Source: Paramecium tetraurelia
Taxonomy: Eukaryota
Direction: 5' to 3'
Length of the DNA stretch: 50,632 nt
Assembly: GCA_000165425.1 (NCBI GenBank)
Contig: CT868039.1
Coordinates: 186,001 to 236,632, forward strand
A program made the position numbers and the translations under genes. Every line of letters starts with the position of its first letter. Within the stretch, counting starts at the first letter, position 1. The notes beneath the pieces are model-generated. The model did no database searches, had not been told where the DNA came from, and saw only the letters and a program-made list of their open reading frames with translations. Below are positions 43,807 to 45,547 of this stretch, piece after piece.

Positions 43807-45435
43807 ATGATTCGCTACGCAAGGCGTATGCAAAAATTCTGCAAAGCAGCAGGTGTTTTTGATGTCGCTGTGATAGGAGGAGGGTCAGGGGGTTTAGCTT
43901 TTGCACTTGTAATTAGTTTTAAATATAAATTAGGAAGGTGCAAAGTTAGGATTAAAGATTGCTGTATTTGATTATGTCACTCCTTCAAGCCAAGGTTCAA
44001 TCTGGGGATTAGGAGGGACTTGCGTAAACGTAGGATGCATACCAAAGAAACTTATGCATCATAGTGCTTTACTTAAGGAGAATAATGAAGGTTCAACTCC
44101 TTATGGATGGACTCCAAGTGAATAAGAACAAGTTAATTGGGATGTTTTGGTAGAGAATGTCTAGAACCATATAAAAGGATTGAATTATGGGTACAAAGGA
44201 AACTTATAAAAATCTGGAATTCTTTATTTGAATGAACTCGCTACTTTTAAAGATAATCACACTTTACTCTATGGCAAATTGGATGATTTCAAATCGAAAG
44301 ATGAGAATAAATTAAGAGAATTGAAATTCAAATATTGTGTAATTAGCACTGGGGGACGTCCAACTAAATTATAATCAATTGAAAAACATGCCATTACATC
44401 TGATGATATTTTTTCCCAGTAAAAACCTCCAGGCAAGACTCTTGTTGTCGGTGGTGGATACATTGCTTTAGAATGTGCAGGAATGTTAAAAGGATTAGGT
44501 TATGATGTAACATTAATGACAAGAGGAAAATACCTAAGAGAATTTGATCAGGATGTTGTGAAAATGATCCTAGACCATTATCAAAAATATTTGAGAGTCA
44601 ATATAGTACCCGAGTCATTACCATTCCATTCTGAATAAAAGGATGATAAAATTTTAGTTAAGTGGAGGTCTACTGTTAATTCATAAGAAGATGGTGGTGC
44701 TTTCGATACTGTTCTTATGGCAATAGGAAGATAAGCCAACACCTAAATGCTTAATTTGGATAAAGTAGGTATCAAAGTGAACCCTAATAATAACAAAGTA
44801 ACAATATGAAAATAATTTAGATTTTTGCTAATTACAATGGAGAAGCAGAAAGAACTGAGGTTGACAATATATTTGCTATTGGAGATGTATTAAATGGAAT
44901 TCCTGAATTAACTCCAGTTGCTTCAAAAAGTGGTTAATTATTAGCCAAAAGAATACAGCTGCTAATAAAAGGTTCATATTCAAAATAAGAATATGAAAAT
45001 ACTAAGTTAGAATACAATGATTATCCAACAACTGTGTTTACTCCTCTCGAATACAGTTTTGTTGGTTTAAGCGAAGAATAAGCAAAATAAAAGTTTGGAG
45101 AACATGATATTGAAATCTATCATTCTAAATTTGTTCCTTTAGAAGAGCAATTATGCGATAAACTTGACGAAAATTATGAACTAATGCAAAGAAAGGTGTA
45201 TGTCAAAGCTATATGTCATGTTTCCGATAATAATAAAGTTGTTGGATTACATTACCTTGGACCTAATGCTGGGGAAGTAATGTAAGGATTTGGTGTTGCA
45301 GTAAAATTAGGAATGAAATTAAGTGATTTATAAAGAACTGTAGGAATTCATCCTACTAATGCTGAAGAATTCGTTCTTCTTAAAGTTACTAAATCTTCAG
45401 GAGCAGACTTTGAAAAACATGGATGCTGAGCTTGA
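43807..45435 (+). CDS. TXNRD: High-Mr thioredoxin reductase, selenoprotein (probably mitochondrial)
   Basis: [48 protein letters not shown]-terminus GGA TGC TGA GCT TGA = G-C-U-A-stop; Arg-rich N-terminal presequence; two introns. Confidence 0.93.
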
Positions 45436-45482
45436 GATTCTCATAATTAATACTCTCTATTAAATAAATATATACTTTATGT

Positions 45483-45547
45483 ATATATTTTAATGACGCA
45501 TAATATCGAAATTACTCTCTAAAGATCTTATGCTGATGAAATATTTA
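45483..45547 (+). promoter_or_regulatory. SECIS element (selenocysteine insertion sequence)
   Basis: aTGAc (45493-45497), stem gcataatatc, loop starting gAAA, stem gatcttatgc, TGAt (45534-45537), flanked by an AT helix; about 60 nt after the stop codon. Confidence 0.88.

What the first reader, a model, noticed from the sequence alone, without database searches (positions are those of the whole stretch)
43807..45547. Selenoprotein thioredoxin reductase with a non-canonical Gly-Cys-Sec-Ala tail and a SECIS, in a genome where UGA is the only stop codon
Seen: the CDS ends GGA TGC TGA GCT TGA (45421-45435), and a textbook SECIS hairpin (AUGA core, about 10-bp stem, unpaired AAA, GA) lies at 45483-45547. 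Known: animal-type TrxRs end Gly-Cys-Sec-Gly, and this ciliate code uses only UGA for termination. Inferred: the first UGA is recoded as Sec and the second, one codon later, terminates. Ala in place of the usual terminal Gly is atypical, and automated annotation would truncate the protein at Cys.
Basis: partly seen in the sequence, partly recalled or inferred. Interest (0 to 1): 0.75.

Follow-up and report, generated by a model that had tools for sequence, protein, structure and literature searches.

The report
Paramecium selenoprotein thioredoxin reductase with SECIS
This is a Paramecium gene for thioredoxin reductase whose last-but-one codon, UGA, most likely encodes selenocysteine with the help of an RNA hairpin just downstream; this is known from other ciliates, but the public protein record stops two residues early.

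Summary
A three-exon gene (43807-45435, + strand; introns of 25 and 23 nt) encodes a high-molecular-weight thioredoxin reductase. It scores 543 bits against TIGR01438 (cut-off 475.85). The coding sequence ends GGA TGC TGA GCT TGA. The first TGA aligns with Sec498 of rat TrxR1 and with profile position 484 of 485.

The public Paramecium tetraurelia record is identical to this gene but stops at the Cys (524 aa). Of 120 database homologues, 118 also end at that Cys.

A hairpin at 45484-45547 has the AUGA, AAA and UGAU motifs of a SECIS. It matches Rfam SECIS_1 over the full model at 32.4 bits (E 1.9e-5), just under the gathering score of 35. It is the only hit in the window to a strict SECIS descriptor, where 0.087 hits are expected by chance.

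The reading "Sec, then Ala, then stop" is well supported but not shown. No orthologue DNA, selenium labelling or peptide data were available.

Selenocysteine-containing TrxRs are already described in Tetrahymena, Euplotes, Condylostoma and Parduczia. This is therefore a new, mis-annotated member of a known kind. The terminal Ala in place of Gly is a small variation of unknown significance. Interest is modest.

The parts
43807..43908 (+). Exon 1 of the TrxR gene (ATG at 43807; codons 1-34; FAD-binding GGGSGG motif)
   Evidence: Spliced model; identical to public protein P0002
43909..43933 (+). Intron 1, 25 nt, GTA...TAG
   Evidence: removing it restores the frame and reproduces P0002
43934..44797 (+). 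Exon 2 (codons 35-322). It holds the redox-active CVNVGC at 44021-44038 (Cys64/Cys69) and the NADPH-binding region.
   Evidence: TIGR01438 profile 21-300; CVNVGC is present in the 8 full-length homologues in alignment A1
44798..44820 (+). Intron 2, 23 nt, GTA...TAG
44821..45435 (+). Exon 3 (codons 323-527): dimerisation domain, His (45349-45351) and Glu of the HPxxxE motif, and the tail Gly-Cys-UGA-Ala-UGA
45427..45429 (+). In-frame TGA, codon 525, the proposed selenocysteine codon
   Evidence: Aligns with position 498 of rat TrxR1 chain 1h6v_A and with TIGR01438 profile position 484 of 485
45430..45435 (+). GCT (Ala526) followed by TGA, the proposed true stop
   Evidence: The family profile ends one position after the Sec position. 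The next in-frame TGA is 271 codons further on.
45484..45547 (+). [quoted passage not shown]
   Evidence: Rfam SECIS_1 at 32.4 bits, E 1.9e-5, model 1-64/64. It is the only strict-descriptor hit in the window. Folds.

Best explanation
This is the Paramecium tetraurelia gene for a high-molecular-weight (animal-type) thioredoxin reductase that is a selenoprotein.

Proposed mechanism. The mRNA carries a SECIS hairpin that starts 48 nt after the stop codon. Its core lies 63 nt after the UGA at codon 525. The hairpin presumably recruits the SECIS-binding protein and the Sec-specific elongation factor. Codon 525 is then read as selenocysteine, Ala526 is added, and the next UGA (codon 527) terminates. 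The mature tail is Gly-Cys-Sec-Ala.

As in other large TrxRs, the Cys-Sec pair would accept electrons from the CVNVGC/FAD centre of the partner subunit and pass them to thioredoxin.

Shown here:
- the gene structure
- family membership
- the exact alignment of the UGA with the Sec position
- the SECIS-like element and its rarity in the window
- the truncation of the public record.

Inferred:
- that Sec is actually inserted
- that the second UGA terminates
- that the Ala tail is functional.

No special device is needed to tell the two UGAs apart. If Sec insertion is only partly efficient, termination at the second UGA will dominate among ribosomes that passed the first.
For: Family membership:
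- TIGR01438 scores 543.1 bits against a cut-off of 475.85. The annotated 524-aa protein ends at profile position 483 of 485, so it lacks exactly two positions. Adding the UGA (read as C) and Ala extends the match to position 484 of 485.
- Pfam finds Pyr_redox_2 and Pyr_redox_dim.

Position of the UGA:
- In phmmer against solved structures, the best match is rat TrxR1 1h6v (E 1.2e-50). Query residues 9-203 align to chain residues 321-498 of 499, which places the UGA on the Sec position.
- Of the 120 listed homologues, 118 end in Cys at this column. These include P. sonneborni, Tetrahymena malaccensis, Ichthyophthirius and Pseudocohnilembus. This is the pattern expected when gene callers stop at a Sec codon.

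SECIS:
- Rfam SECIS_1 gives 32.4 bits and E 1.9e-5 over the full model.
- It is the single strict-descriptor hit in the window, against 0.087 expected.
- Two weaker look-alikes gave no SECIS_1 match.
- The 63-nt spacing from the UGA exceeds the 51-nt minimum quoted in PMC3737529 (passages read).

Precedent in other ciliates:
- Three Tetrahymena thermophila TrxR genes have an in-frame UGA plus a SECIS (PMC2612030, Table 2 and the selenocysteine section; PMC1557398, passages).
- Ciliate TrxR homologues carry Sec at the penultimate codon (PMC4967479, figure legend).
Against: - The SECIS_1 score is below Rfam's gathering score (32.4 against 35). The match was not reported when 351 nt or the whole window were searched.
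- The hairpin is not unusually stable (z = -1.18 and -2.07).
- The descriptor thresholds were chosen after seeing the element.
- The window holds no tRNA gene, tRNA-Sec included. The Sec machinery of this organism was not examined.
- No orthologue DNA could be read. Conservation of the x-TGA tail and covariation in the SECIS are therefore untested.
- No held paper was found that describes a Paramecium selenoprotein TrxR.
- The terminal residue is Ala, not the Gly found in every solved Sec-type chain aligned.
Confidence: 0.88

Rival explanations
1. The protein really ends at Cys524, as annotated, and the downstream hairpin is a chance or fossil structure. The enzyme would lack the Sec partner of the C-terminal redox pair.
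For: The public record ends at Cys. The SECIS_1 score is under the gathering threshold. The fold is not thermodynamically exceptional. UGA is the normal stop in this organism.
Against: The family profile continues exactly two positions beyond the Cys. 118 of 120 homologues stop at the same Cys, which fits a shared Sec codon. A full-length SECIS_1 match at E 1.9e-5 lies 63 nt downstream, and it is the only such site in 101 kb of sequence counting both strands. A lone C-terminal Cys cannot form the Cys-Sec/Cys-Cys redox pair that large TrxRs use (established knowledge, recalled).
Confidence: 0.05
2. The tail is really the canonical Gly-Cys-Sec-Gly. On this view GCT is a base-call error or a strain variant of GGT.
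For: GCT and GGT differ by one base. No second copy or orthologue DNA was available for comparison. No held paper contains 'Cys-Sec-Ala', and none combines 'GCUA' with thioredoxin reductase and selenocysteine.
Against: Nothing in the window suggests poor sequence quality. The gene translates without a flaw and is identical to the public protein. The residue before Cys also varies among homologues: 104 Gly, 9 Ser, 4 Ala and 1 Asp among 118. The tail is therefore not rigidly fixed.
Confidence: 0.05
3. Both UGAs are decoded as Sec, and translation continues into a long C-terminal extension.
For: The frame after the second UGA stays open for 271 codons. Both UGAs are at similar distances from the SECIS core, 63 and 57 nt.
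Against: The extension is low-complexity sequence, and much of it runs antisense to the convergent kinase gene at 45728-46801. The family profile ends one residue after Sec. Long open frames occur by chance in a UGA-only code: 0.86% of the 2207 stop-to-stop runs in the window are this long or longer.
Confidence: 0.02

Closest known systems
Tetrahymena thermophila selenoprotein thioredoxin reductases (TTHERM_00486500, TTHERM_00823430, TTHERM_00047660; PMC2612030 Table 2, PMC1557398)
   Same: [quoted passage not shown] Both have a TrxR with an in-frame UGA aligned to the Sec of other eukaryotes, and a 3'-UTR SECIS with AUGA, AAA and GA. In both cases gene callers originally truncated the protein. 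A T. malaccensis homologue is 59% identical over exon 3.
   Different: The Tetrahymena, Ichthyophthirius and Pseudocohnilembus proteins end ...KTSC before the UGA. The two Paramecium proteins end ...KHGC. I could not read the Tetrahymena residue after Sec. I did not run the published Tetrahymena SECIS sequences through any tool.
Mammalian TrxR1 (rat 1H6V, human 2ZZ0/3EAN)
   Same: They share the domain order, the CVNVGC centre, the HPxxxE motif and the penultimate Sec position. The exon 3 alignment has E 1.2e-50 and runs to residue 498 of 499.
   Different: The last residue is Ala instead of Gly. There is a 17-residue insertion (the query spans 195 residues against 178). The SECIS core lies 57 nt after the stop, against about 221 nt in human TR1 (PMC3737529). 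The stop codon is a second UGA.
Euplotes crassus TR1/TR2 (PMC3737529)
   Same: A ciliate Sec-TrxR in which Sec insertion is restricted to the C-terminal region, with a short distance from stop codon to SECIS (138 and 124 nt).
   Different: In Euplotes, UGA also encodes Cys and is not a stop. In Paramecium, UGA is the only stop.
Condylostoma magnum and Parduczia sp. TrxR homologues (PMC4967479, legend of Figure S2E)
   Same: Penultimate Sec codon lying shortly before the SECIS.
   Different: Those species have no dedicated stop codon, and UGA also encodes Trp there.

Membership tests
High-Mr thioredoxin/glutathione reductase subfamily (NCBIfam TIGR01438) | Whole-protein score above the curated cut-off | tested here: met
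   543.1 bits against 475.85; residues 18-524 on profile positions 3-483 of 485
High-Mr thioredoxin/glutathione reductase subfamily (NCBIfam TIGR01438) | Pyridine nucleotide-disulphide oxidoreductase fold with dimerisation domain | tested here: met
   Pfam Pyr_redox_2 at 1.7e-50 and Pyr_redox_dim at 7e-26
High-Mr thioredoxin/glutathione reductase subfamily (NCBIfam TIGR01438) | N-terminal redox-active CVNVGC and the C-terminal His/Glu pair (HPxxxE) | tested here: met
   CVNVGC at 44021-44038. H177 and E182 of exon 3 are invariant in alignment A1.
Selenoprotein-type TrxR | In-frame UGA at the penultimate codon, directly after a Cys | tested here: met
   TGC TGA at 45424-45429. It aligns with rat TrxR1 position 498 of 499 and with profile position 484 of 485.
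Selenoprotein-type TrxR | Terminal tetrapeptide Gly-Cys-Sec-Gly | tested here: not met
   The last codon is GCT (Ala). How general the Gly is outside animals could not be measured, because the database proteins stop at the Cys.
Selenoprotein-type TrxR | Selenium actually incorporated at the UGA | not testable with these tools
   Needs 75Se labelling or mass spectrometry
Eukaryotic SECIS element (Rfam RF00031) | Score at or above Rfam's gathering score | tested here: not met
   32.4 bits against 35; E 1.9e-5; full model 1-64/64. Not reported in the wider searches.
Eukaryotic SECIS element (Rfam RF00031) | AUGA / AA(A) / GA motifs, with a 9-12-bp upper stem and the AA 10-13 nt after AUGA | tested here: met
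   Only hit in the window to the strict descriptor, with 9 of 10 and 7 of 7 pairs and AAA 12 nt after AUGA. Chance expectation is 0.087 per window.
Eukaryotic SECIS element (Rfam RF00031) | Lies in the 3' UTR, at least about 51 nt after the Sec codon | tested here: met
   63 nt from the UGA to the AUGA core; the minimum is quoted in PMC3737529. That the mRNA extends past 45547 is assumed, not shown.
Eukaryotic SECIS element (Rfam RF00031) | Pairing kept by compensatory changes in orthologues | not testable with these tools
Sec-utilising organism | tRNA-Sec, EFSec, SBP2, PSTK, SepSecS and SPS2 present | not testable with these tools
   No tRNA gene in the window.

The most novel reading that the evidence does not exclude
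The Gly-Cys-Sec-Ala tail may be a fixed, functional Paramecium-lineage variant of the TrxR redox tail. The arrangement UGA-GCU-UGA, with one SECIS core 63 and 57 nt downstream, may also reflect active, position-specific discrimination between a Sec UGA and a stop UGA one codon apart. In this organism there is no other stop codon, and the next in-frame UGA lies 271 codons away. If so, this would be a natural minimal system for studying how SECIS-directed recoding and eRF1 termination are told apart.
Probability: 0.15. Interest if true: 0.55.

Novelty: new member of a known kind. Interest (0 to 1): 0.3.

Why it matters
In practice, this is an annotation error in a model organism. The public protein lacks its catalytic selenocysteine, and the same error will affect any selenoprotein in genomes where UGA is the only stop. 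It also adds Paramecium to the ciliates that can read all 64 codons as amino acids, a point first made for Tetrahymena (PMC1557398). On the mechanistic side, a Sec UGA and a stop UGA separated by one codon, with no nearby backup stop, is a convenient natural case for measuring competition between Sec insertion and termination. The same arrangement is likely in other UGA-only ciliates. That inference rests on their proteins also stopping at the Cys. The Ala-for-Gly change is small. Its value is as a natural variant for enzymologists who study the flanking residues of the Cys-Sec pair.

Tried and rejected
Rfam searches that missed the element:
- At gathering thresholds over the whole window there were 0 matches.
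- At E up to 10 on 351 nt, and again on the whole window, no SECIS match appeared. It appeared only when 75 nt were given, so those negatives reflect the speed filters.

Other SECIS candidates:
- Looser descriptors gave 4 further sites: 25065 and 34732 on the + strand, 27845 and 48302 on the - strand. None lies behind a convincing coding frame.
- The 48302 site folds no better than shuffles (z = 0.33). The reading frame upstream of it is full of UGAs.
- The 48302 and 34732 sites gave no SECIS_1 match. The other two sites were not scanned with Rfam.

Technical failures:
- A dinucleotide-shuffle control timed out with no output. I replaced it with first-order Markov simulations.
The six members of the P0002 cluster stayed unseen.
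- The review PMC3471088 (eukaryotic selenoproteomes) is not held. From memory it may list Paramecium; this is unverified.

Not attempted or not possible:
- Reading the residue after Sec in relatives failed. 118 of the 120 listed homologues stop at the Cys, and the other two end in unrelated sequence.
- The Tetrahymena SECIS sequences printed in PMC2612030 were compared by eye only and were not entered into any tool.
- The supplements and figures of PMC4967479 (alignment in Figure S2E) were not seen.
No orthologue DNA was therefore searched.
- Structure prediction and complex prediction were not used, because they would not bear on the question.

Full report
**What is in the sequence.** The window is AT-rich, with 23-38% G+C in 2-kb steps. 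It reads as protein only under the ciliate code, in which TAA and TAG encode Gln. The finding lies in a three-exon gene on the + strand: 43807-43908, 43934-44797 and 44821-45435. The two introns are 25 and 23 nt, each GTA...TAG. One search printed four splice models that keep the frame. The first is letter-for-letter the public Paramecium tetraurelia macronuclear protein P0002, which has 524 aa and which UniRef names thioredoxin reductase. The spliced CDS has 527 codons: 14 TAA, 1 TAG, and TGA only at codons 525 and 527. No GT lies between 45421 and 45480, so no intron can start there to change the tail.

**What the protein is.**
- P0002 scores 543.1 bits on NCBIfam TIGR01438 (thioredoxin and glutathione reductase), against a cut-off of 475.85. 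Its last residue sits at profile position 483 of 485. With the UGA read through (shown as C) and the Ala added, the match reaches position 484.
- Pfam finds Pyr_redox_2 and Pyr_redox_dim.
- Exon 3 matched 108 distinct solved sequences. The best is rat TrxR1 1h6v_A at E 1.2e-50, with query residues 9-203 on chain residues 321-498 of 499. The UGA therefore falls on the Sec position, and the Ala on the final Gly.
- The CVNVGC redox centre (44021-44038) and the His and Glu of HPxxxE are present. The His and Glu are invariant in a 10-sequence alignment.
- That alignment also shows a TAA-encoded Gln (exon-3 residue 155) that is invariant in ciliate, animal and green-algal homologues. This is direct evidence for TAA = Gln here.
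- A review's passages state that Paramecium reads UAR as Gln and that its release factor recognises only UGA (PMC4695839).

**Relatives stop at the same Cys.** The homologue search scored 1743 candidates, of which 1173 had E at or below 0.001; the best 120 were listed. Of these 120, 118 end in Cys at the aligned column. P0077 and P0114 end in unrelated sequence. The residue before the Cys is Gly in 104, Ser in 9, Ala in 4 and Asp in 1. The ciliate homologues behave the same way. P. sonneborni (85% identical over exon 3) ends ...EKHGC. Tetrahymena malaccensis, Ichthyophthirius and Pseudocohnilembus end ...EKTSC. This is the pattern expected when gene callers stop at a Sec codon. It also means that no database protein shows the residue after Sec, so I could not measure how unusual the Ala is.

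**The hairpin.**
- The minimum-free-energy fold of 45483-45547 pairs 45485-45492 with 45537-45544, and 45498-45507 with 45524-45533 (one U/C mismatch). It leaves a 16-nt loop that begins GAAA.
- AUGA (45493-45496) faces UGAU (45534-45537), as in the SECIS core. AAA begins 12 nt after AUGA.
- My own descriptor required ATGA; AA 10-13 nt later; GA 34-79 nt after the start of ATGA; at least 9 of 10 upper-stem pairs; and at least 6 of 7 lower-stem pairs. It hit only this site on both strands of the window.
- Three hundred simulated windows with the same first-order composition gave a mean of 0.087 hits, and 26 had at least one. The thresholds were set after seeing the element, so this figure flatters it. 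With looser thresholds (8 and 5 pairs) the real window has 5 hits.
- Rfam SECIS_1 (RF00031) matches 45484-45547 over model positions 1-64 of 64, at 32.4 bits and E 1.9e-5. The AUGACG, AAA and CUGAUG positions are identical to the consensus. This is 2.6 bits under the gathering score.
- The match was not reported with 351 nt or with the whole window. I attribute this to the speed filters, which the tool says are laxer for short inputs.
- Two looser look-alikes submitted in the same way gave no SECIS_1 match.
- Stability is unremarkable: z = -2.07 with 10 of 200 shuffles folding as well, and z = -1.18 with 20 of 200.

**How it most likely works.** The SECIS core lies 63 nt after the first UGA and 57 nt after the second. 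Both distances exceed the 51-nt minimum quoted in PMC3737529. I propose that the first UGA is recoded to Sec, Ala is added, and the second UGA terminates, giving a Gly-Cys-Sec-Ala tail. This is inferred from the family profile ending one residue after Sec and from precedent in other ciliates. It has not been shown.

Beyond the second UGA the frame stays open for 271 codons. That stretch is low-complexity sequence, much of it antisense to the convergent kinase gene at 45728-46801. Runs of that length make up 0.86% of the 2207 stop-to-stop runs in the window. The simplest model needs no special discrimination between the two UGAs. Partial Sec-insertion efficiency at each UGA would make Sec-then-stop the main full-length product.

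**Comparison with what is known.**
- Tetrahymena thermophila has six putative selenoprotein genes, three of them TrxRs. Each has an in-frame UGA aligned with a known Sec and a SECISearch-positive 3' UTR. These genes, too, had to be re-annotated by hand (PMC2612030, Table 2 and the selenocysteine section; PMC1557398, passages).
- Euplotes TRs restrict Sec insertion to the C-terminal region (PMC3737529, passages).
- Condylostoma and Parduczia TrxRs have a penultimate Sec shortly before the SECIS (PMC4967479, figure legend).

The mechanism and the family are therefore known in ciliates.

What I did not find in print:
- No held paper describes a Paramecium Sec-TrxR.
- PMC2375036 does not mention Paramecium.
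- No held paper contains 'Cys-Sec-Ala'.
- No held paper combines thioredoxin reductase and selenocysteine with 'GCUA'.
- The review most likely to list Paramecium selenoproteins (PMC3471088) is not held.

**Verdict.** This is a new, mis-annotated member of a known kind, with a minor tail variant whose rarity and significance remain open. I put the probability that this is a Sec-TrxR at about 0.88. Interest is about 0.3.

Noticed in passing
window 40644-43079 (+): The upstream neighbour is a protein kinase (Pfam Pkinase, 6.6e-67) with a TEY activation-loop motif like a MAP kinase. It has a long Gln-rich C-terminal half, and its open frame holds 74 TAA/TAG codons read as Gln.
   Followed up: partly
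window 45728-46801 (-): A convergent gene with a weak, partial protein-kinase match (Pkinase, 1.3e-09) ends only 292 nt from the TrxR stop. The two 3' UTRs and the SECIS must therefore share this short spacer.
   Followed up: partly
window 45436-46251 (+): The frame after the TrxR stop stays open for 271 codons, so there is no nearby in-frame backup UGA. Only 0.86% of stop-to-stop runs in the window are this long or longer.
   Followed up: yes
window 25065, 34732 (+); 27845, 48302 (-): Looser SECIS descriptors pick up four further AUGA...GA hairpin-like sites. None follows a convincing coding frame. The two tested (34732 and 48302) give no SECIS_1 match.
   Followed up: partly
window 45484-45547: Rfam's speed filters lost a 32-bit SECIS_1 match in this AT-rich DNA unless fewer than about 100 nt were submitted (against 46). 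Routine Rfam scans of ciliate genomes may miss SECIS elements in the same way.
   Followed up: yes
proteins P0002-P0007: The two Paramecium TrxRs end ...KHGC before the UGA. The Tetrahymena, Ichthyophthirius and Pseudocohnilembus proteins, and one unnamed metagenome protein, end ...KTSC. The residue before the Cys-Sec pair therefore differs between these ciliate lineages.
   Followed up: no
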